The position numbers and the translations under genes are program-made. The notes beneath the pieces are model-generated. The model saw nothing but the letters and a program-made list of their open reading frames with translations, was not told the DNA's origin and searched no databases. From assembly GCA_034520665.1 (NCBI GenBank), contig JAXHNJ010000002.1, positions 179,166 through 243,165 of the forward strand: a stretch of DNA of 64,000 nt, in the 5' to 3' direction. Source of the DNA: Patescibacteria group bacterium. GTDB lineage: Bacteria; Patescibacteriota; Patescibacteriia; JAXHNJ01. Every line of letters starts with the position of its first letter. The stretch's first letter is position 1. Positions 1,913 to 37,678 of the stretch are shown here, one piece after another.

Positions 1913-1913
1913 G

Positions 1914-10408: not shown

Positions 10409-10410
10409 AA

Positions 10411-12412: not shown

Positions 12413-12480
12413 TAAAAAAAGCGGCTCCTTTCATAAGCCACCTTATTTTTATCTTAAATTATTACTTATAAAAAGTCAAA

Positions 12481-14313
12481 TTATTCCACGGTGACACTCT
12501 TAGCCAGATTTCTTGGCTGGTCCACATGACAGCCCCTTAAAACAGCCAAATGATAAGCCAGAAGCTGCAAAGGAATAACCGTTAATAAGGGTGTAATAAT
12601 TTCTTCAGTCTCAGGTACATAAATAACGTGGTCAGCCATTTTTCTAATTCTTTCGTCTCCCTCAGTAGCTATACAAATAACCTTACCCTGACGAGCCTTA
12701 ACTTCTTCAATATTGCTGATTATTTTTTCATAAATCGTGGAATTACCAGTAGCAATAAAAACCACCGGCATATTTTCATCTATCAAGGCGATGGGCCCGT
12801 GTTTCATTTCAGCCGCTGGATAGCCTTCAGCATGAATATATGATATCTCTTTAAGCTTTAAAGCTCCTTCCAAAGCTACTGGGAAATTATAACCACGTCC
12901 AAGGTACAAAAAATTATTTGCCTTTTTAAATCTACCCGCTAAATCTTTAACGACTTGGCTTTTATCTAAAGCTTTTTTTACCTGTTTTGGTATTACTTCC
13001 AAAGCTTTTAAATATTTTTTAATTTGCTCAGGCTTTTTTCTTTTCAATTCCTGAGCTAAATAAAGCGAGAAAAGATAAAGCGCTGTTACTTGAGAAGTAA
13101 AAGCTTTAGTCGAAGCCACACCAATTTCCGGTCCGGCATGAATATAAACACCAGCATCTGTTTCTCGGGCAATACTAGAGCCAACCACATTAACAATACC
13201 CATAACCTTGGCTCCTCTTTTCTTGGCTTCTTTTAAGGCGGCTAAGGTATCAGCTGTCTCACCCGATTGACTAATAACGATAATCAGAGTTTTTTTACCG
13301 ATTATTGGATGACGATAACGAAATTCTGAAGCATAATCTACTTCCACTGGCACCCCAGCCATTTCTTCAATTAAATATTCGCCCAAAAGCCCAGCGTGCC
13401 AGGAAGTACCGCAAGCTGTGATAATTATTCTTTCAAAATCTTTAAATTTATCTTTTAAGGAGAAAAGTCCGCCTAATACTAATTTACCCTTGCTTGAATC
13501 AATTCGACCACGGAAAGCATTTTTAATAGTTTCTGGCTGTTCAAAAATTTCCTTTAACATATAGTGAGAATAATTTGCTTTTTCTAATTGCTGCAGATCC
13601 CAATCAACTTCTTTAATACATTTAATTACCTTACTATTGGTTATGGTAGATATTTTAAAGTCATTTCGACTCAAAACAGCCATTTCTTTATCGTCTAAAT
13701 AAATCACTTTTTTAGTCTGAGAAATAAGCGGCGTAACATCTGAAGCTACAAAAAACTCATTTTCTTTTATACCAATTACCAAAGGACTACCGTTTTTAGC
13801 TACAATAATTTTATCCGGCTCATCACTGCAAACTATAGCTAATCCATAGGCACCCTCAAGTTGTACTAGGGCTTTTTGTACAGCTTTTTCAAAATTACCC
13901 TTATAATACTTTTCTATTAAATGAGCAATAACTTCGGTGTCAGTATCGGAAATAAATTTATGGCCTTCTTTTATTAAAAGTTCTTTTAAAAGAGAATAGT
14001 TTTCAATAATACCGTTGTGAACTACGGCAATTTTCTTATGACAATCAAAATGAGGATGAGCGTTCTTCTTATTAGGCCTACCATGGGTAGCCCAGCGAGT
14101 ATGGCCAATACCAAAACTACCTTCAATGCCTTCTTTTTTAATAGATTTTTCCAGTTCTTTAATCTTGCCTTGGCATTTACGGTATACCAGTTTATTTTTA
14201 TTAACTAAAACCACGCCAGCTGAATCATAGCCACGATATTCTAAACGTTTTAAACCTTTTATCAAAAGAGGTAAGGTTTTTTTAGGGCCAATATAGCCTA
14301 CTATGCCACACAT
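12481..14313 (-). CDS. glmS: Glutamine--fructose-6-phosphate aminotransferase (isomerising)
   Basis: MCGIVGYIG at the N-terminus is the class II amidotransferase Cys1 motif. Two SIS domains and a C-terminal ...KSVTVE are present, over 610 aa. Confidence 0.95.
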   Translation of the reverse strand: MCGIVGYIGPKKTLPLLIKGLKRLEYRGYDSAGVVLVNKNKLVYRKCQGKIKELEKSIKKEGIEGSFGIGHTRWATHGRPNKKNAHPHFDCHKKIAVVHNGIIENYSLLKELLIKEGHKFISDTDTEVIAHLIEKYYKGNFEKAVQKALVQLEGAYGLAIVCSDEPDKIIVAKNGSPLVIGIKENEFFVASDVTPLISQTKKVIYLDDKEMAVLSRNDFKISTITNSKVIKCIKEVDWDLQQLEKANYSHYMLKEIFEQPETIKNAFRGRIDSSKGKLVLGGLFSLKDKFKDFERIIITACGTSWHAGLLGEYLIEEMAGVPVEVDYASEFRYRHPIIGKKTLIIVISQSGETADTLAALKEAKKRGAKVMGIVNVVGSSIARETDAGVYIHAGPEIGVASTKAFTSQVTALYLFSLYLAQELKRKKPEQIKKYLKALEVIPKQVKKALDKSQVVKDLAGRFKKANNFLYLGRGYNFPVALEGALKLKEISYIHAEGYPAAEMKHGPIALIDENMPVVFIATGNSTIYEKIISNIEEVKARQGKVICIATEGDERIRKMADHVIYVPETEEIITPLLTVIPLQLLAYHLAVLRGCHVDQPRNLAKSVTVE

Positions 14314-18366: not shown

Positions 18367-18915
18367 TTAAGCTAATTTTCTTTTATAAGCTTTGTTTCTA
18401 ACTAAATACAAAACTAATTCATAGCTGCCAAAAAGAACAAAAACAAAAAATAAGTCTCCTAAAAGAGTATTTCTAAAGAAAGGTAAGGCCATAAAATAAC
18501 TTTGTCCCAAACCAGACCAGGTTTTAGCATACCACCCACTGGCCGCCCAGACCGCAAAATTAGTAGTTAAAAAAAACAAAATTGAAGAAGCTAAAGTACC
18601 AGTAATTATTGTGGCAATATTCTTTCTTTTCCGCAAATATAAGCCAAATAATCCAATCAAAGCAAAGCTACCCCAAACCGTCAGTAAAACTCCTATATTA
18701 TAAAAACCAATAAAATAATCACTAATCGCTAAAACAGCTAATGGAATTAATATAGCGTATTTTCGGCTTAAATAAACCCCGCTAAATAAGGCTACAGCCC
18801 CTATCGGCGCAAAATTCGGGGGTAAGTTAATAATTTTGTAAAAAGCCAAAATTCTTAAGCCTACCGCTAAAATCACTAAAAAATAAGGTAATATTTCTAT
18901 AGTCTTTTTTTTCAT
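18367..18915 (-). CDS. Small polytopic membrane protein (182 aa). Possibly a cobalamin-specific ECF-type S component (CbrT-like) or another B12 uptake protein.
   Basis: Five to six TM helices. It lies immediately downstream of the DUF4430 gene and inside the cobalamin-riboswitch-controlled unit. The assignment rests on context only. Confidence 0.4.
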   Translation of the reverse strand: MKKKTIEILPYFLVILAVGLRILAFYKIINLPPNFAPIGAVALFSGVYLSRKYAILIPLAVLAISDYFIGFYNIGVLLTVWGSFALIGLFGLYLRKRKNIATIITGTLASSILFFLTTNFAVWAASGWYAKTWSGLGQSYFMALPFFRNTLLGDLFFVFVLFGSYELVLYLVRNKAYKRKLA

Positions 18916-18937
18916 AAATCTTTATTTAATTATAAAC

Positions 18938-19393
18938 CTAGAAAGAACTTTTTTCAAATTTAAATTCTACTTCATCGCCAGCCGACAGCTCAAAAGAGTC
19001 TACTCCGACCATAGGCATTTCACCATTTACATAATACATCCAGTATTTATTTTTTTCACCATTTTTATAACCATCTATTTCTTTAATTAAAACTCCAAAA
19101 TCAGACTCTTCAATAGTTATATCCAACAATTCATCTTTATCAGCTTTTTCTAAGACATCAAATACTGTTTCTCCTTTACTAAAAGTCGAGATTAATTCCT
19201 TTTCTTTATCCTCATAATTAATAGCTAAAAAAGCCCGGCGCCTGGCCATGATACTTTCAGCGCCAGCTATATCCCCTTCTAGTCCTAATTTATCTAAAGC
19301 CTGGTAAGTACTGACCGTCTGGGCCCCAAAAATAATACCTGACAAAACGGCCACCAGAATAAATAAACTTAAATAAAGTTTTCTTTCTTTCAT
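18938..19393 (-). CDS. DUF4430-domain secreted/anchored protein, a family recurrently found in cobalamin uptake loci
   Basis: N-terminal TM, then ...GVLIKEIDGYKNGEKNKYWMYYVNGEMPMVGVDSFELSAGDEVEFKF, the DUF4430 pattern (YW.Y.VNG). It is directly downstream of the B12 riboswitch. Confidence 0.6.
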   Translation of the reverse strand: MKERKLYLSLFILVAVLSGIIFGAQTVSTYQALDKLGLEGDIAGAESIMARRRAFLAINYEDKEKELISTFSKGETVFDVLEKADKDELLDITIEESDFGVLIKEIDGYKNGEKNKYWMYYVNGEMPMVGVDSFELSAGDEVEFKFEKSSF

Positions 19394-19399
19394 TTTTTG

Positions 19400-19635
19400 C
19401 TCTCCTTAATAAAAAAACCCTGACTTCGGCAATTAAACAAGGGTTTTTAAAATTATTAAATCTTTCTACCGAAGATTTGTTATCTAAAAGGTGTCCTGGC
19501 TTACAGAGGATTGGCTCGTCAGCCCCTTCCCCTAAAAAAGAGTGGTTATGGCCGCCTGGCTTCTCTGCTTACAGTGACGGGATCGCGCCGGATTTGTTTT
19601 TGACTTAAAAGCAAAACGCACCGGTCTTCCCTTTT
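19400..19635 (-). promoter_or_regulatory. Cobalamin (B12) riboswitch with an intrinsic-terminator expression platform
   Basis: The minus strand reads ...GGTGCG...AAATCCGGCGCGATCCCGTCACTGTAAGCAGAGAAGCCAGGCGGCC.... This matches the cobalamin aptamer consensus (GAAUCCGG, the B12 box CCCGCCACUGUAA with one substitution, and AAGCCAGGA). A hairpin AACCCTTG...CAGGGTT plus a U7 tract is followed by the AAGGAG RBS of the DUF4430 gene. Confidence 0.8.
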
Positions 19636-19674
19636 TTTCTTAAAAATTTTATTTTTAAGAAAAATATTTAATTA

Positions 19675-20208
19675 TTAATATTCAATACCTTTTCTTGCTT
19701 TTAATCCCTGGTCAAAATAATGCTTGTTTTTATTCATGATAGTTACCAAATCTGCTAGCTTAATAATTTTATCATGAGCGTTTCTTCCCGTCAAAACAAT
19801 CTCTGTGGATAAAGAATTATTTTTTAAAAACTTAATGAGTCTATCTTTTTTTATTAAACCAAAATCAAGGGCCACATTAATTTCATCTAATATTACTAAA
19901 TTATATTTTTTATTTTTAATTTTTTTAATGGCATAGGCCAAGCCTTTTTCGGCTCTTTCAAAATCTTCTTTTTTTATTTTGCTCTTATCAATAAATTTAT
20001 GGCTACCAAATTGTTTAATTTCTAAATTATTAAATTTTTTTAAGGCCTTAATTTCACTATAATCTCCTTTTTTCATAAACTGTATAATCAGGACTCGAAA
20101 ACCAGCTCCTAAGGCCCTTAAAGCTAAGCCTAAAGCAGCTGTAGTTTTTCCCTTACCTTCTCCCGTATAAACTTGAATCATATTTAGCCTAATGAACAGG
20201 CTGACCAA
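19675..20208 (-). CDS. cobO: Cob(I)yrinic acid a,c-diamide / cob(I)alamin adenosyltransferase (CobO/BtuR family)
   Basis: IQVYTGEGKGKTTAALGLALRALGAGFRVLIIQFMKK is the BtuR P-loop signature. The start may be the internal ATG at 20181, directly after the nrdJ stop. Confidence 0.85.
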   Translation of the reverse strand: MVSLFIRLNMIQVYTGEGKGKTTAALGLALRALGAGFRVLIIQFMKKGDYSEIKALKKFNNLEIKQFGSHKFIDKSKIKKEDFERAEKGLAYAIKKIKNKKYNLVILDEINVALDFGLIKKDRLIKFLKNNSLSTEIVLTGRNAHDKIIKLADLVTIMNKNKHYFDQGLKARKGIEY

Positions 20209-22430
20209 CCACAGTGCGGGCAGGTTTTACAGCCTTCTTTAATTTCCATAGTGGCTCCACACTCGGGGCATTTTGTTTTATCCACTATTTTTGATATTTT
20301 AACTTCCTGCTTGGTAGTCTCCTGACCAATTTCTTCTTCATTTTTATCTTTATTCTTTTCACCGGCTTCTATATTTAGAACCTGGGCTTCTCTTGAACGA
20401 TCTCTATAAATCGTTACTCCTTTACAATCTGCTTTAAAAGCCTTGAGATAAACCTCTTCTACATCTTCAGTGGTAGCTGAGTGAGGAAAATTAACCGTCT
20501 TAGAAACAGCGTTATCAGTGTATTTTTGAAAAGCGGCTTGCATTTTTATATGCTCTTCCGGAGTAATATCATGAGCCGTAACAAAAACTTTTTTTACCTT
20601 ATCCGGTATCTCAGAAAAATCCTGAATAGTGCCCTTTTCAGCAATTCTTTTCATTAAATTATCTGAATAAAAGCCTTCTTCCTTAGCTATTTTTTCAAAA
20701 CTAGGATTAACTTCAACCAATTCATCACCTTCATCCAGTAAATTTCTCCTGACATAAGAAATAGCAAAAAGTGGTTCAATACCAGAAGAACAGCCAGCGA
20801 TAATAGAAATAGTGCCGGTTGGAGCAATGGTAGTTAAAGTAGCATTACGCACTTTTTCTCCTTTTTTATCATTATAAATACTCTTGGCAAAGGCTGGAAA
20901 AGCTCCTCTAATTTTTGCCAGTTCCTTTGAAGCTTCTCGAGCTTTTTTAGTGATAAATTTCATAACCTTTTCTCCTGTTTTTAAAGCTTCTGAAGAATTA
21001 TAAGGTATTTCCAGCTGAATTAACATATCAGCAAAACCCATTACTCCTAAGCCTACTTTTCGATTTTTCTCCACTATTTCTTCAATTTTATCCAAAGGAT
21101 ACCGACTCATATCAATAACGTTATCCAGAAAATGAACCGCTTTTTCAACAGTTTTAGCTAATTTATCAAAATCAATTTTTTTATCTTTAACCATTTTAGA
21201 TAAATTAATTGAGCCAAGATTACAGGATTCATAAGGCAAAAGGGGTTGTTCACCACAAGGATTAGTTGATTCAATCTCTCCCTGTTCAGGCGTTGGATTT
21301 TTTTCATTGATACGATCAATAAAAATAATGCCCGGTTCACCGTTCTTCCAAGCCATAGTCACAATTAAATCGAAAATTTTTCTGGCGGAAAGTTTTGAAA
21401 CTACTAATTTGCTACGCGGATTAATTAATTCATAATCTTTATTTTTTTCTACCGCTTTCATAAATTTATCAGTAACAGCTACAGAAATATTAAAATTAGC
21501 CAACTCGCCTTCATTCTCCTTAGCGGTAATAAATTCCAAAATATCCGGATGGTCTACTTTTAATATAGCCATATTTGCTCCTCTTCGAGTGCCCCCTTGT
21601 TTTATAGCCTCGGTAGAAGCATTAAAAACTTTCATAAAAGAAATCGGTCCTGAGGCAATACCACCCGTGCTTTTTACCAGATCACCGTCCGGGCGAAGAC
21701 GAGAAAAAGAAAATCCCGTGCCGCCGCCTGACTGATGAATAATAGCCGTATTTTTAATGGTTTCAAAAATACCGCTGATCGAATCATCAACTGGCAAAAC
21801 AAAGCAGGCTGAAAGCTGTTGCAGATCTTTGCCCGCATTCATTAAAGTCGGCGAATTAGGTAAAAATTCAAAATTACTCATCATGTCATAGAATTTCTTG
21901 GCTGTCTGCTCAACATCAACTTCCTGATGATAAAGAGTTTTATAAAGTTTATCAGCATAAGCAATATTATTACCCACCCTTTTAAACATACCCGAAGGTG
22001 TTTCTGTGACATGACCCTCAGCGTCTTTGCGTAAATACCTCTTTTGCAAAACTGTCATAGCATTAGGCGTTGACTTAACCTTTACCTTATACCCTTTTAA
22101 CATTAGCTTGGCTTCTCTTATATTTTTATGCTTTTGACGATAAATAATATAAGCTTTAGCAATTTCTGCTTGACGATCTCTTATTAATACCTCTTCCACT
22201 ATATCCTGAACACCTTCCACAGTCGGAATTTCACTTTCTGATAACCTTTCCTGTAAAATAGTAGTTACTGTAGTAGCCAAGCGCTTGGAAAGACTTTTAT
22301 TACTTTTACCAATCGCTTTAGAACATTTAAAAATAGCCTCGGCAATATTTTTTCGATCAAAATCAACGATGCGGCCGTCGCGTTTTTTTATTTTTTTTAA
22401 TTTATTTTTCTTAAAAATTGAAGCTTCCAT
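20184..22430 (-). CDS. nrdJ: Adenosylcobalamin-dependent (class II) ribonucleotide reductase with N-terminal ATP-cone and C-terminal zinc ribbon
   Basis: ATP-cone ([17 protein letters not shown]). ...[23 protein letters not shown] is the class II RNR active-site Cys region. The C-terminus carries CPECG...CPHCG. Confidence 0.9.
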
Positions 22431-25486: not shown

Positions 25487-25936
25487 CTAGCCTACGGTTT
25501 TTATTAATTCATCTTCAATTCCCTCCATAAGCTTTCTTTCTTTTTTATTTTTGTGTTTATAGCCTAATAAATGTAATAATCCGTGAATGGTTAACTTTTT
25601 CAATCTGTCTTCCAGTTTTTCATCAATTTTATCAGCTTCTTCTTTAGCTTTCCTAGGACAGATAAATATTTCTCCTAATACATTATTTTTCAAAGGAATT
25701 TCAAAAAAAGTATTTTTATTTTTTTTCTCAGAAAAATGAAAGGTTAGAACACTGGTAGCTTTATCCTTTTTACGATAAGTTTTATTAAGTTCTTTAATTT
25801 TTTTCTTATCAACTAAAACTAGGGAGATCTGTTTTTTTATTTTTTTATCAAGTTTTTTAAGAGATTTCTCTATAACTTTTTCAAAAAAATCTTTTTTATA
25901 AGAAGTTTCAATTAAAGCCGTAAAATTAACTGGCAT
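25487..25936 (-). CDS. ybeY: rRNA maturation endoribonuclease YbeY
   Basis: The HGLLHLLGYKH zinc-binding motif (H..H....H). Confidence 0.85.
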   Translation of the reverse strand: MPVNFTALIETSYKKDFFEKVIEKSLKKLDKKIKKQISLVLVDKKKIKELNKTYRKKDKATSVLTFHFSEKKNKNTFFEIPLKNNVLGEIFICPRKAKEEADKIDEKLEDRLKKLTIHGLLHLLGYKHKNKKERKLMEGIEDELIKTVG

Positions 25937-27500
25937 TAGTATTTTGATTCTGATTGCTGTTTGTAGTTGAAGAAAGTAATTTGAAGCTCTGATACATCAT
26001 TTCAAAAGTAGTTTGATAATTTACTGCCGATAAATTACCGACATTATAATTTATTAGATATATTTTATCTTCTTTTCCCAAATAAACAGTGGTTTTATCT
26101 GGTGTTAATATTCCACTAAGTCCATTGACCACTATTTCTTCAAGTTGAGAAGTCTCTATATTGGGATTAAGAGAAAGATACCACTGCTCTGCTGAAAGCC
26201 GGGATGTATTTTCTTCAACTGTTACCTGCACGTATTCAACCGTGGAAATATCCGGCGAAAACATAATATTTTTTTCACCAGTGCTGGCACTCATCTGGGT
26301 AGCTGTCCATTTGCTGGGGTAAAGCAAGCTCCATTTGTAAGTATCATTAGTGTATTGCTCCGTAGAATCTGAAGTTGACAATTTTTTATCTTTAACCGTA
26401 GGATCATAACCTAAGTAGAGCTCACCCACAATATCTCCGGAAGATAATGTATTTTTACCGTCAATATAACCATCACCATCAGTGTCAGGGGTATTTTTAC
26501 CAGTATTCCAAAGATTCTCCTCTACGTCTGTTAGTCCATCTCCGTCATCGTCATTAGTAGAAGATAAAGGGATGGTGCTGGTATTAGTATTAGTACTAGT
26601 ATTAGTATTAACATTATTATTGCCGTTGAGATTGGCATTAGAATTAATATTAGTATTATTATTTATATTAGCATTTGAATTACCGTTTAAATTTAAGCTA
26701 CCTTCATCTTTAAGCAATTTAAAGGATTTAATAGATTCTTCAAAAATATCTTCATATTTTGAAATTTCATCTTCTGTTGAATACATAATACTTACTTGAG
26801 TATTTTGATAGACTATAAAAGCCATAAGTCCTTTAATTTCTGTTTGATTTAGGGTACCGCCACCTAATACAATTAAAGATTCTCTTCCGTCTATTGTGGT
26901 CTCTTCGGAAGTTTCAACACTAAAGGTACTACCCTTTTCACTGCTTAAAAATTCATCTTTCATACTTTCAGCATCCAAAACAGATTCACTCTTATCTTCA
27001 ATGGTAACCGTGCCCAAAGTAATTTCATCAAGAGCGGAAGGAGTAAAAGAAATAGTATTATTATTCATAGTATTCGCCTCCCAATTTGATGGATATTTTA
27101 TTGAAAAAACCGAATTAGGGTCACCATATTCTTTTAAAGTAATACTTACATTCGCATTTAAATTACTGTTTGAATTAGAATTAAGATTATCACTACTATT
27201 AGAATTATTAACCACTACATTTTTATTATCCTCCGGTGAAGAAAGTTTCTGAAAAAGATAAGCAGCCCCGACAGCTATACCGGCAAAGAGAAAAACAGAG
27301 ACAACAATAATTATTATTTTTTTCTTTTTACTGCTTCCACCCTTTTTTGAAGTATCACGAAATTTTTTGGGCATAGTATAAACATCTTTAGAGTTTTCTG
27401 GTGAACTTGCTTCTTTTTCCTGGTTCGCTTCAGAAGACTCCTCTATTGAAGGAGGGGTGGGTCTGCTTTGATTATCATTTTGATTTTTATTATCAAACAT
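25926..27500 (-). CDS. Hypothetical membrane-anchored, Asn-rich protein with thrombospondin type-3-like Ca-binding repeats (524 aa)
   Basis: N-terminal cytoplasmic segment plus a TM helix. ...DDDGDGLTDVEENLWNTGKNTPDTDGDGYIDGK matches the D-x-D-x-D-G-x-x-D TSP3-like motif. Long poly-N low-complexity runs are present. Confidence 0.5.
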   Translation of the reverse strand: MFDNKNQNDNQSRPTPPSIEESSEANQEKEASSPENSKDVYTMPKKFRDTSKKGGSSKKKKIIIIVVSVFLFAGIAVGAAYLFQKLSSPEDNKNVVVNNSNSSDNLNSNSNSNLNANVSITLKEYGDPNSVFSIKYPSNWEANTMNNNTISFTPSALDEITLGTVTIEDKSESVLDAESMKDEFLSSEKGSTFSVETSEETTIDGRESLIVLGGGTLNQTEIKGLMAFIVYQNTQVSIMYSTEDEISKYEDIFEESIKSFKLLKDEGSLNLNGNSNANINNNTNINSNANLNGNNNVNTNTSTNTNTSTIPLSSTNDDDGDGLTDVEENLWNTGKNTPDTDGDGYIDGKNTLSSGDIVGELYLGYDPTVKDKKLSTSDSTEQYTNDTYKWSLLYPSKWTATQMSASTGEKNIMFSPDISTVEYVQVTVEENTSRLSAEQWYLSLNPNIETSQLEEIVVNGLSGILTPDKTTVYLGKEDKIYLINYNVGNLSAVNYQTTFEMMYQSFKLLSSTTNSNQNQNTNAS

Positions 27501-27525
27501 ATTATTTTTATATTAATTTCTTAAT

Positions 27526-28056
27526 TTATGATTGGTTATTATTAATATTTTCAATAGCTGAATTTGTATTAAATAATTGGCCTTCACCATTAGGGTTGTA
27601 GTTTTTATCCACCTCTTCCCCGTCAGAAAAACCGTCACCATCAGTATCTTTATTTTTTGGATCAGTTTTATATATATATACTTCTTCATAATCACTGAGG
27701 CCGTCCGAGTCTGTATCCGCTTTTTTTATATCAGTGCCCAGTTCTTTTTCTTTATCATTAGAAAGTCCGTCCCGATCATCATCATCAGTTTCTTCTTTAA
27801 TTATAATTGTCTGGTTGGTTAAAGACGGTCTAAAAGACGGTCTATTAGTGTTTAAATTTACTTCCTTATCATTAACAGCCGTTGTATTCTCATTCAAGTT
27901 TTCTGCTTCTGATCCACTGAAATATAAATACAAGCCAGCTGATAAACCCAAAACTATTATTAATGTCACTATTATTATAAGTAATTTTTTTCGGCCTGTA
28001 AAAGAAGACTGGGCTATATCCTCTTCAGAGGGTTCATTAGAATTAATTTGATCCAT
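27526..28056 (-). CDS. Hypothetical membrane-anchored protein with TSP3-like Ca-binding repeats (176 aa)
   Basis: TM helix, then DDDDRDGLSNDKE...DTDSDGLSDYEE...DTDGDGFSDGEE. Confidence 0.5.
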   Translation of the reverse strand: MDQINSNEPSEEDIAQSSFTGRKKLLIIIVTLIIVLGLSAGLYLYFSGSEAENLNENTTAVNDKEVNLNTNRPSFRPSLTNQTIIIKEETDDDDRDGLSNDKEKELGTDIKKADTDSDGLSDYEEVYIYKTDPKNKDTDGDGFSDGEEVDKNYNPNGEGQLFNTNSAIENINNNQS

Positions 28057-28081
28057 ATTATTATAAAATTAATTTTTTATT

Positions 28082-31000
28082 TTAAGGGCTGGAAACCCAA
28101 TAATCAAAACTATCACAAGAAGCTGAGGAAATACTGTCACATATATCAAATTCACTGGTACTAGCATCCCAATAAGTGTTATCTGTCTCAAGATTAACAT
28201 ATAAATTATAATTTACCCCGTGATCAGTTTGATAGGCATAAATAGAAGAACCGGAGCTGCAAAGAAATTCTTTATTCTCTTCATCCCAGCAGGTATTAGG
28301 CGGAAAACTAGGACAAATAGCTTCATTTAAAGGATCAACTGGTAAACTCTTGCCTAAAGCATTACCTAAACTAGCCTGCCAGGAAGGCCATATAGAAGTG
28401 CTCATATTAGAAATATAACTGCCGGATTCTAACATAGGATAGGGTGCTTCAATTTCTTCTATTTTAAAATCATCAACCCAAGCCACATCATTACTCTCCA
28501 CAACACCTCTATGTCGGGCTATAAATCTGATTGAACGATCAGCTTTATTGGCATAAACAATATTAGTTATTTTTGTCCAATCATTATCACCATAAATATA
28601 ATCCGTATGACTGTTTAGATCACAACCTGTCCAGTCAAAGCTATGAATACTGGTTATTAAACATTCCGAATGAATTTCAAATCCTAAATCACCCGTATCA
28701 TCGTTATCATCTGTATCATCGTGATCATCTGTTTTTACCCAAGCTGTAAGTTTATAGGTTTTACCATAAGTAACCGGAACATCCTGAAGAACATAACGGC
28801 GACTAGCCGCAAGATCCGACGAATCGTAGGTACCACCCTTTAATTCCACAGAATTATTTCCTGTATGGGCTTGGCTGGAATCAACATTAACCTCTGACGA
28901 AAAAGAACCAGGTGTTTCCCAAACTTGTTCATCAGTGGAACTCACAATAGTATAAACATCTTCAAATCCAGGGCTATTAACAAGATTTGTTTCAGAAGAA
29001 CTTGGCTGATTAGCCCGATAATCTTCAAGATAACCAGTGATAGTCCTTAAATCAGCAATTCTTTTTAAATCCCTGATAATCTTTTCTTTTTCCCCAGCCG
29101 TAGTAATATTTGTATTAAAAGTCCAATAGTCAATTAACTGATCATATATATTTTTTATTTTTGAATCAGCCCCTTTATTATAGGAAATTAGATATATATT
29201 TGAATAAAGTGTACCACTGTCATAATTTGTAGCTCCAACATACACCGTTCTTCCGTCACGCACGGCCCGGTAACCGTCTACTGTAGTAGACTGGGGAGAG
29301 CCTTGATCTTTTATATTTTGTTTATACCATTCTTGCGGAGTCAGCGCCTCCGGGTTAGCATAAATACGAATACCAATGCCATCATCAGTTACTTCACAAG
29401 TGCCGCTTGTACAATTTAAAGGACTGCTAGGGTCCTTCGAACATCTTTGATGGCCTTCAGAACAACGGCCTGATTCTTTGAATAAATATTGTTTTAAAAC
29501 GTCGCCGGATTCTCCTCTGACTACGCTCATATCTAAATCCGGTAAAATATTACTGGAAAATTGACATTTTTGTCCGACATAATCACTGCAACATTCTTCA
29601 TCAGTCGGACAAGAAGTTTGATAATCCAAAGTGCAAACTGTATTAGTGGTTCCCTCACAAACGCCATAATCACCCCGGCAATAAAATAATTTAAAATTAT
29701 AATCATTACTACAACCGTCCGCGTTAATATCACAGTTACTAGCTGCTTCTTCAAATTCCCAGGGCATATCACAAAAAATTACTTCAATTTCAGCACTGGC
29801 TTTTTTACTGCCAGTCCAGCCCGTACCAGCTTGGGCTTCACTTCTAAGCCAGGTCTGGCCATTTTTTACTGGACTAGCTGTTTGAATAGGGTTAGCCGTA
29901 CAAATACCGTCCGGACAATCATCATTATTAACACAACTATCACCGTCATAAGTACCACCATTACATTTAAGATCATTGTTTACAGTAGCAATATCTTTAT
30001 TATCCATAGACCAATGCCAAGCCCAATCATAAACCCCTAATATTGATTGAATAGAATTGTCATTATCATCATAAGCTGAAGCAGTAAAATCTCGGGTTTC
30101 AGTTTTACTGGTAAACATATGATGAGAAGGATTTAAATCAATATAATCAATTTCACAAGGATCATTAGTATCAGCCGTGGTAAAACTAAAACTATCAGCT
30201 ACCATAGAAACGCCCTTAGTATTTTCAATATCATTAGTAAGATTAACAGTATAAGTAGTACTGCCCTTTAATAAGTCATTAAGATTTATTCTCACCCTGT
30301 CATCATAAGAGCTAATAGTATATGAAGCCACTCCGCCCGTTAATGTAATATTTGAATCATTCAAAGTGCTTTGATCCATATTCTGATCAAAATTTACTTC
30401 AATTAAATTATTTAAACAAACATTTGGCTCTCCGTCAGTTGGAATGGTACTACTAACTGATGGCCGGTCATAACAACAGCCGTCATCACCACAGCCCTGG
30501 CCAACCGGACAATCACCGTCATTATTACAAATATCACAAGAAGGGGGTCTAACTGTAAAAGGCCAGGTGTTACTGGCAACTCCGTCATTAAAAAGCTGTA
30601 TATTTCCGGTTTCCGCGCCTAAAGGCACGGTTGTTTCCACCATTGTATCATTAGCCCAGGAAACATAATTTGTAACATCTACCCCATCATGAAAAGTAAC
30701 TCGGTCTTCGTCAATTGGTAGGGCGTCTCTAGAACTGCCAAAATTTTTACCCTTTATTTCTACATCGGTAATATTTTCCTTGCCTAGGTTGGGATTAAGA
30801 GCGCAAATACCCGGCCTAACCGTGGAATTCACCTCAAAATAACCATCCGTAAGTACATAAGGAGCCGTGGTAAAATCACTGCTTTCAATACTATAGCTAT
30901 ACCCGCTGGCTAGATCTCCGCCTCTTACGCGAAAAGGATGATCTCCAGAGTCAGCATCATCGCTAAGATCAGCCGTTTTGCTGTTAGGCACTTCCCTTAA

Positions 31001-34000
31001 TATAAGATAATTTTTCCAAGTATCTCCGCAAATACTTTCATTAGGTTTAAGAGCCTCCTTGTCAGTCTGAAAAATTACTTTGCTTAAACTAGAGTCATAA
31101 TTGCCAAACCAACAGCCGGCTATACTGACCCAGGTGCCAATAGCCCCGTCCTTGGGCGAAAAATCATTAATCACTGGAGAGCAGTGGTTATTAATACAAG
31201 TGCTGCCTGGACAGGATATTTCTGTTCCGTCTTCAGTTATTAGATTTTCACAGTCTTCATCAGTCACACAAATAGTGGGATCATTAATAATGGTAAATTT
31301 TTCTTTTCTACTAACTGCAGAAGCTGTAACAGTTACTTCTGGCTCATCGCTTGGGTAATAAGGTGGAGGTGGGGTAATATAATGGGCTGTAAATGTTTGT
31401 TTTGGGTCAGTACGACCATCACTATTCTTATCATAATTAGTAAAAGTTCCATAGGGATCGTCAATCGGCGGACTAACCATAGGATTCTTTCTATGACTAA
31501 CTTTCCAGGCCCAATCATAAGAATTGGCAATAAGCATTTGACCAGTAGCCGGGTTACATTCATCCGGAGAACCGTAAGCAAAAGCCTCATAATCTTCTGT
31601 ATTGCCCACGGTAATCGTAGGATCTTTAGGAGTTAGATCAGCAGAAGCAATAGAACAGGCTGTTGGGTCATCTTTAGTCTTAAAGGTCCAGGAAAAACTG
31701 TCATCTGTACCGTCTTCGTCAGCGTCATAATTAATATTGGCTAAAGGCTCACTATCACTATCACTTACTATATTATTATTTAATATTACCCGGTAATAGG
31801 TGTCCGGATTTAAATAACTATCCGGGGTTAGAATGGCTTTTTTTTCCGAGGTATTATAGGTAGGGGTAATACTTACTGGACCATCCAAAGTAGTGCTGTC
31901 ACAAGCCGCCGCATCATGCTCTTCTAAAGTTATATTCGTATTATTAATAGTAGAACTATCCATAGCAATATTAAAGTTTGTTTCCGGCACTGTGTTAATA
32001 CAAGCAGTGCCACAATCAGGCCAGTAATTAGTGACAATAGGCACCCCTGGCGGCAGCTCACAAATATTAAAATCAATACTATTAGAGCTGCCAGTATCAT
32101 TAGTCACATATACATTACCGTCAGTAGTTTCATCAGCTGGCGGCTTGGGAGGAACCTGGCTTTGAATCTTTGTGTCAGTCCAATCACCAGCGTTTATTGA
32201 ATCAACATAAGGATATGAGGGGACAGCCTGAAATTCCACGTCTTTGGTGCTGGTACTAGCTCCGTCTTCAAAACGTATTCCTTCTAGAGTTAGATTTGAA
32301 CTCGGATAACATGAACCACTAATAGAAAATAAACAAGGGCCATTGGCTAGATCATTAGTATTATAATAAAATTCAACTCCTTTAGAAGTTAGAGTGCCAT
32401 AAGTGGCATCATCATAAGTAAGATCAACAGTTACTTCAGGCCGGTCTCCACTAGAAAATGTAGCCGGTGAAGTAGTCACTATATGATTTTCTCCGGAAGC
32501 TTCCAAGGATGCTGAAGTAGTGTCAAAATTAACCGCTGTGGGATTAGCAATCAAGCCAGTAGTTTTCTTTAAACACTGGCCATGGATGGTGATACATTCA
32601 CCCGGTCCACCTTTATTTGGGTCTAAACCAGTGATAAAAGGACCGCAGGTGCAATCTTCAGGAGCCGTAACATCAAAATCCCATAATGGTATACCTTCTA
32701 AGAATCCGCCACTAGAATCAATAACTCGGTCTGTTCTAACTGTTATTGAATAATTTGTACCTGGAGTAAGCGGTGTGGCCGGAGTTAACTCAAAAACCTT
32801 GAAATGATTACTGCTTGGAGCTCCCGGATCCGTAATCTCTAAAGTGCCAAAACCAGAAGGAGCGGTCCTAGTATAAGGCGGACTAATAGTATCAGCCGCC
32901 GGCATAATAACTTGATTACCATTTACAGTAAAGCTAACTTCATTAAAATACATGCTGGTATTAAAAGTAACTATTATCTTTGTATCCGGACAAACATTTG
33001 AACCAGTCGGATACCAACTATTAAAACCAGCTACTTTATCATTAGTTTGAAATTCCAAAACTGGCATGGAAACCATAACATTACCACACAAATCCTCAAC
33101 ATCTTGCACTGTTACTCGATACCAGGTAAAAGGCTCAAGATTATTTGGGGCTATTAGGGAAAGATGAAAACCGTTGCTTTTTTCTGAAATTTCTAAGAAA
33201 TTAGCGTCAATATAAGTATCCGCATCAGTGTCTAATTTATCATCAAATTGGGGAGTACCGCCTTGACTATCTATTTTCTGTAATTGTATATTATTGGAAT
33301 TAGGTTGAGGTGGATTAACTGAATCAATAACTGTGCTGGCATCTATATTCTCAGAAAAATTAATATCAATAATCGGCTCACGATTAACATTTGTATCAGG
33401 ATACCCAGTATCTCCAGTATGTATCGGATAGGTAGTAGTTACTTCCGGTGGAGTGGTATCCATTATATTATTAGTTCTAAAACTGCAAACAACTCGATTA
33501 TTAGGAGCATCTGCATTGCAGTTAACTGTCGGTCCGATAAAAGCACTGCCAGCAATATCTAAAGATAAGGTATCTTTATCATTAATTGTTTCCGGTAAAT
33601 AAAGATTATAATCTGTATCAGCCTTAAAAACCATCAAATCACAAGTGTCACTAGCACCACCGCATTCACCGTCATCCATACAGCTTTGAGTGTTGTCGTT
33701 TGAGCAAACTTTTGGGTGCTTAAAAGTAATACTTTTACCAGAAGTGATCCAGGTACCTTCTTTTACTACACCTAAATCGTCTTCAATATATAAAGTACCG
33801 CTTGATACAGCGCCATCAACTGTTGTTTTTTCCACGTTATTATTAAATATTGGCTGAATACGGCTGCACATATAGACTTCACTGCCATCATTAGAAGTTT
33901 GCACTTCATTAAGATGAAAAGATTGGCCAGCAAAAGTACACCCGGGTATGGTAAGATCAAAATCATAACCATCCCCACTAGCATTACATATAAGACAACC

Positions 34001-34429
34001 ATCAGAAGGATGAGGAGTCCCTGTAGTACAACTGATACCACCACCACCTGAAGAATTAGTAACAAAGCCCTCAACAAACAGAACAATAGCCCAGGATAAG
34101 AGTATAATCACGATGCCAATAACTGTGTTGACAATTACTTTCTTAGCTTTGGCGATCTTTTCTTCGTTGCCTTTTGAAGTCATCCAAAGAATACCGCCAT
34201 AGATTAAAAAAGAAACCGCTACTAAGCTGACAATGCCTAATACCCACTTAATAATATTAATAACAATCTCCTTCAAATTCATTGAACTCAAACCAATGGT
34301 GCCACCTATCTCCCCAATACTATATGAAGTCTGAGCTAAGGTTTGGTTATGTAAAATAAAAAACCCTCCCATCGCCAGAATGGTGATTATTAAAAATAAT
34401 ATTTTTTGTTTTCTGTTAAAAAAGCCCAT
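28082..34429 (-). CDS. Giant (2115 aa) Cys-rich cell-surface protein, with an N-terminal two-helix pilin-like (TrbC/VirB2-like) membrane hairpin, Ig-like repeats and a C-terminal CBM4/9-like domain
   Basis: The N-terminus is ...IIKWVLGIVSLVAVSFLIYGGILWMTSKGNEEKIAKAKKVIVNTVIGIVIILLSWAIVLFVEG. Then ~2000 aa of Thr/Ser/Cys-rich repeated modules. The C-terminus ...NSVELKGGTYDSSDLAASRRYVLQDVPVTYGKTYKLTAWVK resembles a carbohydrate-binding module. Confidence 0.7.
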   Translation of the reverse strand: MGFFNRKQKILFLIITILAMGGFFILHNQTLAQTSYSIGEIGGTIGLSSMNLKEIVINIIKWVLGIVSLVAVSFLIYGGILWMTSKGNEEKIAKAKKVIVNTVIGIVIILLSWAIVLFVEGFVTNSSGGGGISCTTGTPHPSDGCLICNASGDGYDFDLTIPGCTFAGQSFHLNEVQTSNDGSEVYMCSRIQPIFNNNVEKTTVDGAVSSGTLYIEDDLGVVKEGTWITSGKSITFKHPKVCSNDNTQSCMDDGECGGASDTCDLMVFKADTDYNLYLPETINDKDTLSLDIAGSAFIGPTVNCNADAPNNRVVCSFRTNNIMDTTPPEVTTTYPIHTGDTGYPDTNVNREPIIDINFSENIDASTVIDSVNPPQPNSNNIQLQKIDSQGGTPQFDDKLDTDADTYIDANFLEISEKSNGFHLSLIAPNNLEPFTWYRVTVQDVEDLCGNVMVSMPVLEFQTNDKVAGFNSWYPTGSNVCPDTKIIVTFNTSMYFNEVSFTVNGNQVIMPAADTISPPYTRTAPSGFGTLEITDPGAPSSNHFKVFELTPATPLTPGTNYSITVRTDRVIDSSGGFLEGIPLWDFDVTAPEDCTCGPFITGLDPNKGGPGECITIHGQCLKKTTGLIANPTAVNFDTTSASLEASGENHIVTTSPATFSSGDRPEVTVDLTYDDATYGTLTSKGVEFYYNTNDLANGPCLFSISGSCYPSSNLTLEGIRFEDGASTSTKDVEFQAVPSYPYVDSINAGDWTDTKIQSQVPPKPPADETTDGNVYVTNDTGSSNSIDFNICELPPGVPIVTNYWPDCGTACINTVPETNFNIAMDSSTINNTNITLEEHDAAACDSTTLDGPVSITPTYNTSEKKAILTPDSYLNPDTYYRVILNNNIVSDSDSEPLANINYDADEDGTDDSFSWTFKTKDDPTACSIASADLTPKDPTITVGNTEDYEAFAYGSPDECNPATGQMLIANSYDWAWKVSHRKNPMVSPPIDDPYGTFTNYDKNSDGRTDPKQTFTAHYITPPPPYYPSDEPEVTVTASAVSRKEKFTIINDPTICVTDEDCENLITEDGTEISCPGSTCINNHCSPVINDFSPKDGAIGTWVSIAGCWFGNYDSSLSKVIFQTDKEALKPNESICGDTWKNYLILREVPNSKTADLSDDADSGDHPFRVRGGDLASGYSYSIESSDFTTAPYVLTDGYFEVNSTVRPGICALNPNLGKENITDVEIKGKNFGSSRDALPIDEDRVTFHDGVDVTNYVSWANDTMVETTVPLGAETGNIQLFNDGVASNTWPFTVRPPSCDICNNDGDCPVGQGCGDDGCCYDRPSVSSTIPTDGEPNVCLNNLIEVNFDQNMDQSTLNDSNITLTGGVASYTISSYDDRVRINLNDLLKGSTTYTVNLTNDIENTKGVSMVADSFSFTTADTNDPCEIDYIDLNPSHHMFTSKTETRDFTASAYDDNDNSIQSILGVYDWAWHWSMDNKDIATVNNDLKCNGGTYDGDSCVNNDDCPDGICTANPIQTASPVKNGQTWLRSEAQAGTGWTGSKKASAEIEVIFCDMPWEFEEAASNCDINADGCSNDYNFKLFYCRGDYGVCEGTTNTVCTLDYQTSCPTDEECCSDYVGQKCQFSSNILPDLDMSVVRGESGDVLKQYLFKESGRCSEGHQRCSKDPSSPLNCTSGTCEVTDDGIGIRIYANPEALTPQEWYKQNIKDQGSPQSTTVDGYRAVRDGRTVYVGATNYDSGTLYSNIYLISYNKGADSKIKNIYDQLIDYWTFNTNITTAGEKEKIIRDLKRIADLRTITGYLEDYRANQPSSSETNLVNSPGFEDVYTIVSSTDEQVWETPGSFSSEVNVDSSQAHTGNNSVELKGGTYDSSDLAASRRYVLQDVPVTYGKTYKLTAWVKTDDHDDTDDNDDTGDLGFEIHSECLITSIHSFDWTGCDLNSHTDYIYGDNDWTKITNIVYANKADRSIRFIARHRGVVESNDVAWVDDFKIEEIEAPYPMLESGSYISNMSTSIWPSWQASLGNALGKSLPVDPLNEAICPSFPPNTCWDEENKEFLCSSGSSIYAYQTDHGVNYNLYVNLETDNTYWDASTSEFDICDSISSASCDSFDYWVSSP

Positions 34430-36964: not shown

Positions 36965-37678
36965 TTATAAATTATATTCGGGTGAAATAAAATACTTCAT
37001 TTTATAAAATGGCCAAGCTCTTAGCCAAGCATAACCAACTATTTGATCTTTAATTATCGGGCCAATACTTCTTGAGTCAAGGCTGGAAGAACGATTATCT
37101 CCCAAGACATAATACTCGTTATTTTTTAGCCGGATAGTAATATTGCCTGAAGTTTTAGTATTTTTATCAAGATAATTTTCTTCTAAAATTTTTCCTTTGG
37201 AATCTGAATGGCTATAAACTTCCACTTTTCCTTCCTGAATGACAATTTTTTCACCGGGCAAACCAATAATTCTTTTAATAATATAACCGCCGGCTTTTTC
37301 TTTTTCATTTACCACCACCACATCCCCTCTTTCGGGCTGGGAAAAACGATAAGTTAATTCATTTATAATTAAATATTCATTATCATGAAAATTCGGTTCC
37401 ATAGAGGCCCCGCGCACATAAAAAGGCTGGATTAAAAAATAACGAACCGGAATAATTATAGCTAAGGAAATAACCACTACCTTTAAAACTTCAAAAATAA
37501 AAGAAACAAAAGACTTGGTAAAAGAAGGCAGGAATTCTTCCTTTTTTTGCAACTTAGTCAAACGACGAAAACCCGGCTTAATTTTTACCTTATTTTCTTG
37601 GGCTTCTTTTTCCGCTAAATTTTCTTTGGGTTGTTCTTTTTTTGTTGAATTTTTTTTGGTATTTTTTTTATTCGGCAT
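36965..37678 (-). CDS. lepB: Signal peptidase I
   Basis: ...VRGASMEPNF... carries the catalytic Ser, and GDNRSSSLDSR is box E. Confidence 0.9.
   Translation of the reverse strand: MPNKKNTKKNSTKKEQPKENLAEKEAQENKVKIKPGFRRLTKLQKKEEFLPSFTKSFVSFIFEVLKVVVISLAIIIPVRYFLIQPFYVRGASMEPNFHDNEYLIINELTYRFSQPERGDVVVVNEKEKAGGYIIKRIIGLPGEKIVIQEGKVEVYSHSDSKGKILEENYLDKNTKTSGNITIRLKNNEYYVLGDNRSSSLDSRSIGPIIKDQIVGYAWLRAWPFYKMKYFISPEYNL

What the first reader, a model, noticed from the sequence alone, without database searches (positions are those of the whole stretch)
25926..34429. Surface module: two TSP3-repeat membrane-anchored proteins plus a 2115-aa Cys-rich giant protein with a pilin-like N-terminal hairpin
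Three consecutive genes encode proteins with an N-terminal anchor and Ca-binding D-x-D-x-D-G repeats. The third is a 6.3-kb gene whose N-terminus resembles a TrbC/VirB2-type two-helix pilin hairpin (helix, then KGNEEKIAKAKK, then helix). This is followed by Ig-like, Cys-rich modules and a CBM-like C-terminus. It is a likely attachment or host-interaction apparatus typical of episymbiotic lineages, but it is uncharacterised.
Basis: inference. Interest (0 to 1): 0.5.

Follow-up and report, generated by a model that had tools for sequence, protein, structure and literature searches.

The report
Giant two-pilin-domain surface protein module
An ultrasmall (Patescibacteria) bacterium carries a conserved three-gene set. 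Its 2115-residue surface protein starts with a secretion-system (VirB2-type) pilin hairpin and ends in a head derived from a type IV pilin, so it is probably a long attachment fibre, and nobody has described it.

Summary
Three co-directional minus-strand genes (25926-27500, 27526-28056, 28082-34429) encode two single-pass proteins with TSP3 calcium-binding repeats and a 2115-aa protein with 66 cysteines.

- **N-terminus:** it matches Pfam T4SS_pilin (PF18895) above the curated cut-off and is the best-conserved segment of the protein.
- **Stalk:** Big_5 and TIG Ig-like domains plus Cys-rich modules.
- **Conserved head (new):** a Mog1/PsbP-like domain followed by a domain homologous to the alpha1-C helix and globular part of Patescibacteria type IV pilins (hhalign 97%, E 4e-11). 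This domain has no prepilin leader or hydrophobic alpha1-N.
- **524-aa protein:** it carries a paralogue of the PsbP-like domain.
- **Synteny:** the order giant, TSP3 protein, third protein, YbeY recurs in 34 of 50 species-representative genomes of Parcubacteria-group lineages. It always sits in an rpsU-yqeY...ybeY-dgkA-ftsAZ block.
- **Context:** no T4SS or type IV pilus genes lie in the window.

Best reading: a membrane-anchored stalk with a binding head. Incorporation into a T4SS pilus is not excluded. This is a new variant of known kinds, and its function is untested.

The parts
28082..34429 (-). Gene for the 2115-aa giant surface protein (stop codon included)
   Evidence: ORF, translation. 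It is 100% identical to NCBI MAG protein P0001, and 65 homologues of 1.2-3.7 kaa were found.
34334..34429 (-). Predicted Sec signal peptide, aa 1-32 (n-region RKQK, hydrophobic core, T-L-A then Q)
   Evidence: Hydrophobic segment at aa 7-29. A small-x-small motif followed by QT is conserved in alignment A2. Cleavage itself is inferred.
34079..34276 (-). VirB2-type T4SS pilin hairpin, aa 52-117: helix, loop KGNEEKIAKAKK (aa 86-97), helix
   Evidence: Pfam PF18895, E 1.3e-10, 41.7 bits against cut-off 26.6. Two hydrophobic segments at aa 52-85 and 92-126. It is present in 62 of 64 homologues and is the most conserved segment, at 46-82% identity.
29645..34030 (-). Cys-rich Ig-like stalk, aa 134-1595. 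Big_5 at aa 331-470, 471-595, 801-935 and 1311-1440. TIG at aa 596-700 and, weakly, 1201-1310. Three Cys-rich modules without a Pfam match at aa 134-330, 936-1085 and 1441-1595.
   Evidence: This is the least conserved part (22-60% identity), and its length varies among orthologues, whose ORFs run from 1353 to 4181 aa.
29120..29542 (-). 'K' domain, aa ~1630-1770: Mog1/PsbP-like alpha-beta domain, family-defining
29012..29092 (-). Long helix, aa 1780-1806 (IIRDLKRIADLRTITGYLEDYRANQ): counterpart of the alpha1-C helix of type IV pilins
   Evidence: Helix 185-211 of the model. hhalign of A6 against real Patescibacteria prepilins gives 97.2%, E 4.3e-11. Pfam T2SSG matches are collinear from profile position ~12.
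28448..28996 (-). CBM-like beta-sandwich, aa ~1812-1994, inserted between the helix and the beta part of the pilin-like head
28085..28441 (-). Beta part of the pilin-like head, aa 1997-2115 (YPxLxxGSY..WPSWQxxLGNxLGxxLPxDPxN..YxY..LYxNLE, conserved Cys)
27526..28056 (-). Gene for the 176-aa single-pass membrane protein with three TSP3 (DxDxDG) calcium-binding repeats and no Cys
   Evidence: An orthologue of 145-290 aa follows the giant gene in the related loci.
25926..27500 (-). Gene for the 524-aa single-pass membrane protein: Asn-rich linkers, an extra PsbP-like half (aa ~125-265), two TSP3 motifs (aa 317-350) and a C-terminal PsbP-like domain (aa ~380-511)
   Evidence: Pfam PsbP scores 27.4 bits against cut-off 23.5. 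There are 121+ homologues, mostly 340-400 aa. hhalign to the giant's K domain gives 97.6%, E 2.8e-12.

Best explanation
The three genes encode a conserved cell-surface module of Parcubacteria-group Patescibacteria.

Proposed mechanism:
1. The giant protein is exported by Sec and loses its signal peptide.
2. It stays in the cytoplasmic membrane through a VirB2-type two-helix pilin hairpin. The basic loop faces the cytoplasm and both ends lie outside.
3. It projects a stalk of Ig-like domains, probably stabilised by disulfides and tens of nanometres long.
4. The stalk ends in a conserved head: a Mog1/PsbP-like domain followed by a globular domain derived from a type IV pilin. In this genome the variable loop of that domain carries a CBM-like sugar-binding sandwich.
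5. The head is the binding end, for glycans or another cell's surface.
6. The two small single-pass proteins have calcium-binding TSP3 repeats. One carries a paralogue of the head's PsbP-like domain. They are co-expressed and probably form the membrane-proximal base or an accessory of the fibre.

Shown here: the domain identities, their relative conservation, the paralogy between the giant protein and the third protein, and the conserved gene order.

Inferred: the membrane topology, disulfide bonding, binding function, interaction with the two partners, and co-transcription.
For: - Pfam T4SS_pilin is above its cut-off and covers almost the whole profile. Signal peptide plus two hydrophobic helices around a Lys-rich loop.
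- Big_5 x4 and TIG domains. All 66 Cys lie in the exported part, and a DsbA-like gene is in the window.
- Across 64 homologues the hairpin (62), K domain (57) and C-terminal head (56) are kept. The stalk varies in content and length, which is the pattern expected of an anchor, a spacer and a functional tip.
- The head models are confident (pLDDT 82-85, pTM 0.80-0.82).
- The third protein shares the PsbP-like domain (hhalign 97.6%).
- The order giant, TSP3 protein, third protein, YbeY is found in 34 of 50 species-representative loci and in three metagenomic loci at 37-59% identity. Gaps of 14-25 nt and an 11-nt overlap with ybeY suggest one transcript.
Against: - There is no experimental datum of any kind.
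- A plain anchor would not be expected to be the most conserved part of the protein. That hints at a specific partner for the hairpin.
- The CBM-like domain occurs in only 5 of 64 homologues, so glycan binding cannot be generalised.
- The position in a housekeeping and division block says nothing about host contact.
- The promoter and terminator scans were uninformative.
Confidence: 0.5

Rival explanations
1. Modular T4SS pilin. The hairpin is not only an anchor. The patescibacterial T4SS (VirB4, VirB6) extracts it from the membrane and polymerises it with the small VirB2-like pilins. The 2000-aa extension is then displayed on the pilus, most simply as its first, tip-located subunit, and supplies the adhesin that this T4SS seems to lack.
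For: - The hairpin matches the same Pfam family as the small pilins encoded next to virB4 in Patescibacteria (PMC12102498).
- It is the most conserved segment, including the loop and the WMT/GN/KAKK residues.
- VirB4 is reported in 2417 of 3035 Patescibacteria genomes. No PrgB-like adhesin was found, and the pilin array is essential in Southlakia (PMC12102498, PMC10633639).
- Type IV pili offer a precedent: modular pilins with grafted adhesive modules (PMC8179133).
Against: - No T4SS gene and no second pilin-domain ORF lie within the 64-kb window or just beyond it.
- The gene is fixed in a housekeeping block, not in a T4SS locus, in all loci examined.
- No VirB2-type pilin with a large extension is known to assemble (own knowledge).
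- Whether PF18895 proteins form pili at all has not been shown experimentally (PMC12857230).
Confidence: 0.25
2. Envelope-structural element. The module is a core component of the cell envelope of these lineages, for example a spacer or scaffold through the wall or S-layer, or a division-linked surface structure. It is maintained for cell integrity rather than for binding another organism.
For: - The location between rpsU-yqeY and ybeY-dgkA-ftsA-ftsZ is invariant, with tight spacing, across several candidate phyla.
- The two ends are conserved, unlike the fast-evolving, non-conserved giant proteins reported for another ABY1 genus (PMC11809585).
- TSP3 calcium-binding repeats are common in structural surface proteins (own knowledge).
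Against: - Stalk length varies three-fold (1353-4181 aa), and some genomes carry tandem duplicates. That is more typical of adhesins than of fixed-geometry scaffolds.
- The head carries a lineage-specific CBM-like insert at an exposed loop.
- Gene neighbourhood with ftsAZ may only reflect an inherited operon order.
Confidence: 0.15
3. Secreted or surface-bound polysaccharide-processing enzyme, with the CBM-like domain targeting a catalytic module.
For: - A CBM-like fold is present.
Against: - No catalytic domain was detected by Pfam in any segment or by fold search of the head.
- The CBM-like domain is absent from 59 of 64 homologues.
Confidence: 0.03

Closest known systems
VirB2-like T4SS pilins of Patescibacteria (Pfam PF18895; Quinonero-Coronel et al. 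2025, PMC12102498; Wang et al. 2023, PMC10633639)
   Same: Signal peptide followed by a two-helix hairpin with a short basic loop. The match to the same Pfam model is above its cut-off and covers nearly its full length.
   Different: Those pilins are small proteins, often in arrays beside virB4. Here the domain is the first 6% of a 2115-aa protein encoded in a housekeeping block with no T4SS gene nearby.
Modular type IV pilins, e.g. Streptococcus sanguinis PilB and PilC (PMC8179133, PMC9934059)
   Same: The concept is the same: a pilin module at the N-terminus with an adhesive module grafted C-terminally.
   Different: Those use a type IV (class III signal peptide) pilin module and a type IV pilus machine, and they add one domain. 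Here the N-terminal module is VirB2-type, the extension is about 2000 aa, and assembly into any filament is unproven.
Type IV pilins and T2SS pseudopilins (Pfam T2SSG PF08334; GspG/EpsG, PilE, PilA)
   Same: The C-terminal head aligns profile-to-profile with the alpha1-C helix and globular part of Patescibacteria prepilins. Its predicted fold resembles pilin heads.
   Different: It has no prepilin leader, no G/FTLIE processing site and no hydrophobic alpha1-N. It sits at the far C-terminus of a giant protein, so it cannot polymerise as a pilin does.
Giant Ig-repeat adhesins of monoderm and diderm bacteria (e.g. the Mobiluncus mulieris 7651-aa adhesin, PMC10619420; SiiE, LapA and MpIBP-type RTX adhesins, own knowledge)
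   Same: A long stalk of Ig-like domains, a calcium-binding accessory element and a distal ligand-binding region.
   Different: Those are anchored by sortase/LPXTG or a T1SS retention module. This one is anchored by a pilin hairpin. Its calcium-binding repeats are on separate partner proteins, and its stalk is rich in cysteine.
Mog1/PsbP-like bacterial proteins (LpqN, DcrB, PA0094, DUF1795/Eag chaperones such as SciW)
   Different: Sequence identity is about 10%. Those are stand-alone periplasmic or lipoprotein or chaperone proteins. Here the domain is fused in front of a pilin-like head and duplicated in a neighbouring gene.

Membership tests
VirB2/TrbC-type T4SS pilin (Pfam T4SS_pilin PF18895) | Sequence match to the family profile above the curated cut-off | tested here: met
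   41.7 bits against 26.6, E 1.3e-10, profile positions 5-69 of 71. PF18895 is also precomputed on nearly all homologues.
VirB2/TrbC-type T4SS pilin (Pfam T4SS_pilin PF18895) | Cleavable signal peptide followed by two hydrophobic helices joined by a short, positively charged loop | tested here: met
   Hydrophobic segments at aa 7-29, 52-85 and 92-126, with the loop KGNEEKIAKAKK. Cleavage is predicted only.
VirB2/TrbC-type T4SS pilin (Pfam T4SS_pilin PF18895) | Small protein consisting essentially of the hairpin | tested here: not met
   The protein is 2115 aa, and orthologous ORFs are 1353-4181 aa.
VirB2/TrbC-type T4SS pilin (Pfam T4SS_pilin PF18895) | Encoded in or near a T4SS locus (virB4, virB6, virB3) | tested here: not met
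   No T4SS family was found among the window ORFs. There is no second pilin-domain ORF, and nothing in about 8 kb beyond the right end. The rest of the 698-kb contig could not be read.
VirB2/TrbC-type T4SS pilin (Pfam T4SS_pilin PF18895) | Polymerises into an extracellular pilus | not testable with these tools
   This needs purification, cryo-EM or immuno-EM.
Type IV pilin / T2SS pseudopilin (N_methyl PF07963 + T2SSG PF08334) | Class III signal peptide with the G/F-T-L-I-E processing site and a hydrophobic alpha1-N | tested here: not met
   The domain starts at aa ~1780 of the giant protein and has no such motif. The hhalign match begins after the hydrophobic part of the prepilins, at template positions 40-103.
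Type IV pilin / T2SS pseudopilin (N_methyl PF07963 + T2SSG PF08334) | Homology of the alpha1-C helix and globular head | tested here: met
Bacterial TSP3 repeat proteins (PF18884) | DxDxDG-type calcium-binding repeats matching the profile | tested here: met
   176-aa protein: E 3.2e-15 and three motifs. 524-aa protein: two motifs but no Pfam hit at E 0.01, although its homologues carry PF18884. Giant protein: not met, with one loose motif only.
Carbohydrate-binding module, CBM4/9/16/22-like | Beta-sandwich jelly-roll fold | tested here: met
Carbohydrate-binding module, CBM4/9/16/22-like | Profile match above the cut-off, and ligand-binding residues | tested here: inconclusive
   Pfam CBM_4_9 scores 20.6 bits against cut-off 25.9. 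Binding-site residues were not examined.
Mog1/PsbP-like fold | Alpha-beta fold similarity, and a profile match | tested here: met
Bacterial Ig-like domain Big_5 (PF13205) | Profile match above the cut-off | tested here: met
   E 3.8e-35 for the whole protein. The four separate segments score 32-70 bits against a cut-off of 23.6.

The most novel reading that the evidence does not exclude
The giant protein is a modular VirB2-type pilin. Its hairpin is handed to the patescibacterial type IV secretion system and built into, or at the tip of, the predicted T4SS pilus. This would give that essential but adhesin-less machine a 2000-residue arm whose binding head was recruited from a type IV pilin. 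It would be the first case of a conjugative-type pilin carrying a large functional extension, and it would physically link the two filament systems of these epibionts.
Probability: 0.2. Interest if true: 0.8.

Novelty: new variant of a known kind. Interest (0 to 1): 0.6.

Why it matters
How Patescibacteria attach to and exploit other cells is largely unknown.
- Their T4SS and its VirB2-like pilins are essential in the one species tested, and no adhesin has been assigned to that system (PMC10633639, PMC12102498).
- This family is a concrete candidate that is positionally conserved and easy to recognise in several candidate phyla. Its head domain has about 1700 cluster representatives at 50% identity.
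- It shows that both kinds of pilin fold have been reused as building blocks of giant surface proteins.
- It supplies defined targets (hairpin, PsbP-like domain, pilin-like head) for structure determination, antibody or nanobody labelling in cryo-ET, and host-binding assays.
- The conserved head also gives a marker for annotating hundreds of proteins now labelled only 'Ig-like domain-containing' or 'hypothetical'.

Tried and rejected
- **PDB sequence search, N-terminal profile:** only spurious hits to designed 'Pizza' propellers, through a GxxWxTxxGN repeat. No VirB2 chain was found.
- **PDB sequence search, head profiles:** nothing significant (AKAP14, GLP-1 receptor at E 0.2-0.4).
- **Foldseek against the PDB, CBM-less head model:** no hit at E <= 0.001, only weak Bet v1/START-like and SciW matches.
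- **AFDB50 library:** not available.
- **Pfam on the isolated K, head and Cys-rich modules:** no family.
- **The search for related loci:** The whole protein found no relative in the species-representative genomes. The narrower alignment A5 worked.
- **Type IV prepilin genes:** a search among all ORFs of the 55 loci then held and the window found none.
- **Walking outside the window:** the left-hand contig ends. One right-hand gene was not on record. About 8 kb to the right holds Memo, an A2M-like giant and a P-type ATPase, and no T4SS or T4P genes.
- **Promoter and terminator scans:** not different enough from shuffles to define transcription units.
- **Enzyme idea:** rejected for lack of any catalytic domain.


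Full report
**1. What is there**

The finding's coordinates coincide exactly with three consecutive minus-strand ORFs: 28082-34429 (2115 aa), 27526-28056 (176 aa) and 25926-27500 (524 aa).
- The gaps between them are 25 nt each.
- The giant gene starts 14 nt after the stop of the upstream yqeY.
- The 524-aa gene overlaps the start of ybeY by 11 nt.
- The window has about 34% G+C.
- It encodes ordinary housekeeping genes of a reduced genome, including ComEC, DprA, FtsA/FtsZ, ribonucleotide reductase, HisRS, Mfd, TopA and ParAB.
- The giant protein is 100% identical to a protein of an NCBI 'Patescibacteria group bacterium' MAG, on a 698-kb contig. It is annotated there only as 'Ig-like domain-containing protein'.

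**2. The two small proteins**

The 176-aa protein:
- One hydrophobic segment at aa 18-48.
- Three DxDxDG motifs.
- A clear Pfam TSP3_bac match, E 3.2e-15.

The 524-aa protein:
- A long polar N-terminus, one hydrophobic segment at aa 58-84, and Asn-rich linkers.
- Two DxDxDG motifs at aa 317 and 339.
- A C-terminal domain with a Pfam PsbP match above the cut-off, 27.4 against 23.5 bits.
- 121 or more homologues, typically 340-400 aa. Many carry PF18884, and they align with the C-terminal ~40% of the query.
- The window's copy has an extra, weakly similar PsbP-like half at aa ~125-265 (BLAST E 3e-4).

Neither small protein contains cysteine.

**3. The giant protein, N-terminus**

- Residues 52-117 match Pfam T4SS_pilin (PF18895) at 41.7 bits, against a cut-off of 26.6. 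The match covers profile positions 5-69 of 71.
- The layout is a signal peptide (hydrophobic aa 7-29, T-L-A then Q at 30-33), a conserved exposed stretch, helix 1, the loop KGNEEKIAKAKK (aa 86-97), and helix 2.
- By the positive-inside rule the loop is cytoplasmic and the rest of the protein lies outside (inference). This is the topology known for VirB2-type pilins (own knowledge).
- The hairpin is found in 62 of 64 homologues.
- It is the most conserved segment in every pairwise comparison: 46-82% identity, against 22-60% for the stalk.
- G79, G87 and G105 are invariant, and L64, T84, A95 and K96 are nearly invariant.
- No other ORF in the window carries this domain.

**4. Stalk**

- Big_5 domains at aa 331-470, 471-595, 801-935 and 1311-1440.
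- TIG at aa 596-700 and, weakly, at 1201-1310.
- Three Cys-rich modules without any Pfam match.
- All 66 cysteines lie in the exported part.
- A DsbA-like thioredoxin gene is in the window at 55065-55862.
- Orthologues range from 1353 to 4181 aa, so the stalk is a spacer of variable length.

**5.

Segment-wise BLAST against the 64 homologues shows two more family-defining modules:
- aa ~1596-1800 ('K'), present in 57 of 64;
- the last ~120-150 aa, present in 56 of 64.

In most homologues these two are adjacent. The CBM-like region between them occurs in only 5 homologues.

Structure models:

| Model | Region | pLDDT | pTM |
|---|---|---|---|
| Window protein | aa 1596-2115 | 82.5 | 0.80 |
| Homologue P0004, no CBM insert | aa 1548-1866 | 85.2 | 0.82 |

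Foldseek against the PDB found nothing significant, so I looked for sequence evidence:
- Seven of 24 head sequences hit Pfam T2SSG, and no other family was hit by more than one member. The best score is 20.7 bits, just under the cut-off of 21. The matches are collinear, with protein positions 11-77 aligned to profile positions 12-77.
- A bait search retrieved real Patescibacteria prepilins carrying PF07963.
- A profile of 20 of these prepilins aligns with the head profile at 97.2% probability, E 4.3e-11, over 64 columns.
- In that alignment the giant's RDxKRxxDLxxIxxxLxxYxxxNGxYP...LPxDPxN pairs with the pilins' ARDAKRIADVKQIQxALELYYxxNGxYP...PxDP.
- A control with the N-terminal hairpin profile gives 1.6%.

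The head is thus derived from the alpha1-C helix and globular part of a type IV pilin. It lacks the leader and the hydrophobic alpha1-N.

In the window's protein the CBM-like sandwich sits between the helix and the beta part. That position corresponds to the variable alpha-beta loop of pilins (own knowledge).

**6. Link between the genes**

- The C-terminal domain of the 524-aa family aligns with the giant's K domain at 97.6% probability, E 2.8e-12, over 97 columns.
- The module therefore contains two paralogous PsbP-like domains.

**7. Conservation and distribution**

Three metagenomic or MAG loci, at 59, 41 and 37% identity, show one order:

signal peptidase, HisRS, (HIT), S21, YqeY, giant, small TSP3 protein, ~380-aa protein, YbeY, DagK, FtsA, FtsZ.

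A scan of species-representative genomes with the head motif WPSWQ[AS][TS]LG returned 50 loci.
- They come from Kerfeld-, Uhr-, Buchanan- and Falkowbacteria and other Parcubacteria-group MAGs. GTDB unites these in class ABY1 (own knowledge); the NCBI lineage is.
- 34 of the 50 have giant, TSP3 protein(s), third protein and YbeY in order on one strand.
- 8 more have that order with one member undetected or cut off.
- 4 are short contigs, and 4 carry the head in another context.
- Six genomes have two tandem pilin-domain giants.

A full HMMER scan with the head profile finds 1701 cluster representatives at E <= 1e-3 and 1399 at E <= 1e-10.
- Most are proteins of 1.5-6 kaa with the head near the C-terminus.
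- A few have other architectures, for example signal peptide, K and head followed by TSP3 and Cys-rich repeats.

The surrounding rpsU-yqeY...ybeY-dgkA order recalls the conserved Firmicutes cluster (own knowledge). The module appears to be an ancient insertion into it.

**8. What is not there**

- No T4SS (VirB4, VirB6, VirD4) or type IV pilus machinery gene lies in the window. None lies in about 8 kb beyond its right end.
- The rest of the contig could not be read.
- According to PMC12102498, VirB4 occurs in 2417 of 3035 Patescibacteria genomes. VirB2-like pilins occur in 1948 assemblies that also carry VirB4, often in arrays near virB4. 'No adhesins, such as PrgB, were detected'.
- PMC10633639 shows that the T4SS and its pilin array are essential in Southlakia.
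- PMC12857230 stresses that pilus formation by these systems is only a potential.
- None of the papers I could search describes giant proteins carrying PF18895.
- The giant proteins discussed for Patescibacterium danicum are a different, non-conserved FhaB/DUF2341 type.

**9. Mechanism**

The best-supported reading is a Sec-exported protein retained in the membrane by the pilin hairpin. Its Ig-like stalk presents a conserved PsbP-like plus pilin-like head as a binding tip, and the two TSP3 proteins act as membrane-proximal partners (confidence about 0.5).
- The pattern of a conserved anchor, a variable spacer, a conserved tip and a lineage-specific CBM insert argues for this.
- The unusually strong conservation of the hairpin argues that it does more than anchor.
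- That keeps alive the more novel rival, that the T4SS polymerises it as a modular pilin (about 0.2-0.25).
- A purely structural envelope role is a third possibility (about 0.15).
- An enzymatic role is nearly excluded.

**10. Verdict**

- The object is a new variant of known kinds (VirB2-like pilin domain, modular pilin concept, giant Ig-repeat adhesin). It has an unreported chimeric architecture and a remarkably fixed genomic position.
- Its function remains untested.

Noticed in passing
window 9536-11871 (minus strand): ComEC appears split into two adjacent ORFs. DUF4131 plus the Competence domain are at 10411-11871, and a separate metallo-beta-lactamase ORF is at 9536-10408, 2 nt downstream. 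An independent assembly of the same organism calls the same split (L056).
   Followed up: partly
window 11855-12412 (minus strand): A 185-aa ORF with a weak IS200-like Y1 transposase match (E 2.9e-5, 24.6 bits against cut-off 23). It overlaps the start of ComEC by 17 nt.
   Followed up: no
window 5484-6890 and 7058-9076 (minus strand): Two large ORFs (468 and 672 aa) with no Pfam family at all, lying between ComEC and the NHL/FG-GAP protein. They are also called as genes without Pfam hits in L056.
   Followed up: no
window 2136-5375 (minus strand): A second large predicted surface protein (1079 aa) with NHL and FG-GAP beta-propeller repeats plus a TIG domain.
   Followed up: no
window 55065-55862 and 56141-57352 (minus strand): A DsbA-like protein with two separate thioredoxin-like stretches, and next to it a 403-aa CAP (cysteine-rich secretory protein family) domain protein. 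The DsbA-like protein may serve oxidative folding of the 66-Cys giant protein.
   Followed up: no
window 18367-22430 (minus strand); also L004 22386-26659: Ribonucleotide reductase with an ATP-cone is followed by corrinoid adenosyltransferase (CobO), DUF4430 and DUF6580 genes. RNR, CobO and DUF6580 recur downstream of ftsZ in a 37%-identity relative. This suggests a B12-salvage set coupled to a B12-dependent reductase.
   Followed up: no
L022, L027, L028, L029, L030, L037 (about 1-12900 in each locus): Six genomes, including Buchananbacteria, carry two tandem giant genes that both begin with the pilin hairpin. The upstream one is cut by the locus edge and the downstream one is 3263-3375 aa.
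   Followed up: partly
P0215, P0230, P0303 (proteins): The PsbP-like plus pilin-like head also occurs in other architectures. In P0215 and P0230 it sits directly after a signal peptide at the N-terminus of 800-930-aa proteins, followed by TSP3 repeats and Cys-rich repeats. In P0303 the head alone follows a single N-terminal hydrophobic helix.
   Followed up: partly
L057 3221-8512 (just beyond the right end of the window): A 1763-aa alpha-2-macroglobulin-like protein (MG2, A2M_BRD, A2M) that also has a PT-HINT (intein-like) domain hit. It lies next to a P-type cation ATPase.
   Followed up: no
window 36965-37678 (minus strand): A type I signal peptidase gene lies five genes upstream of the giant gene. 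It keeps that position in the related loci. This may be a coincidence of operon order.
   Followed up: no
L040, L041, L045, L047: Four species-representative loci matched the head motif but show none of the flanking genes of the conserved block, so the head domain also occurs in other genomic contexts.
   Followed up: no
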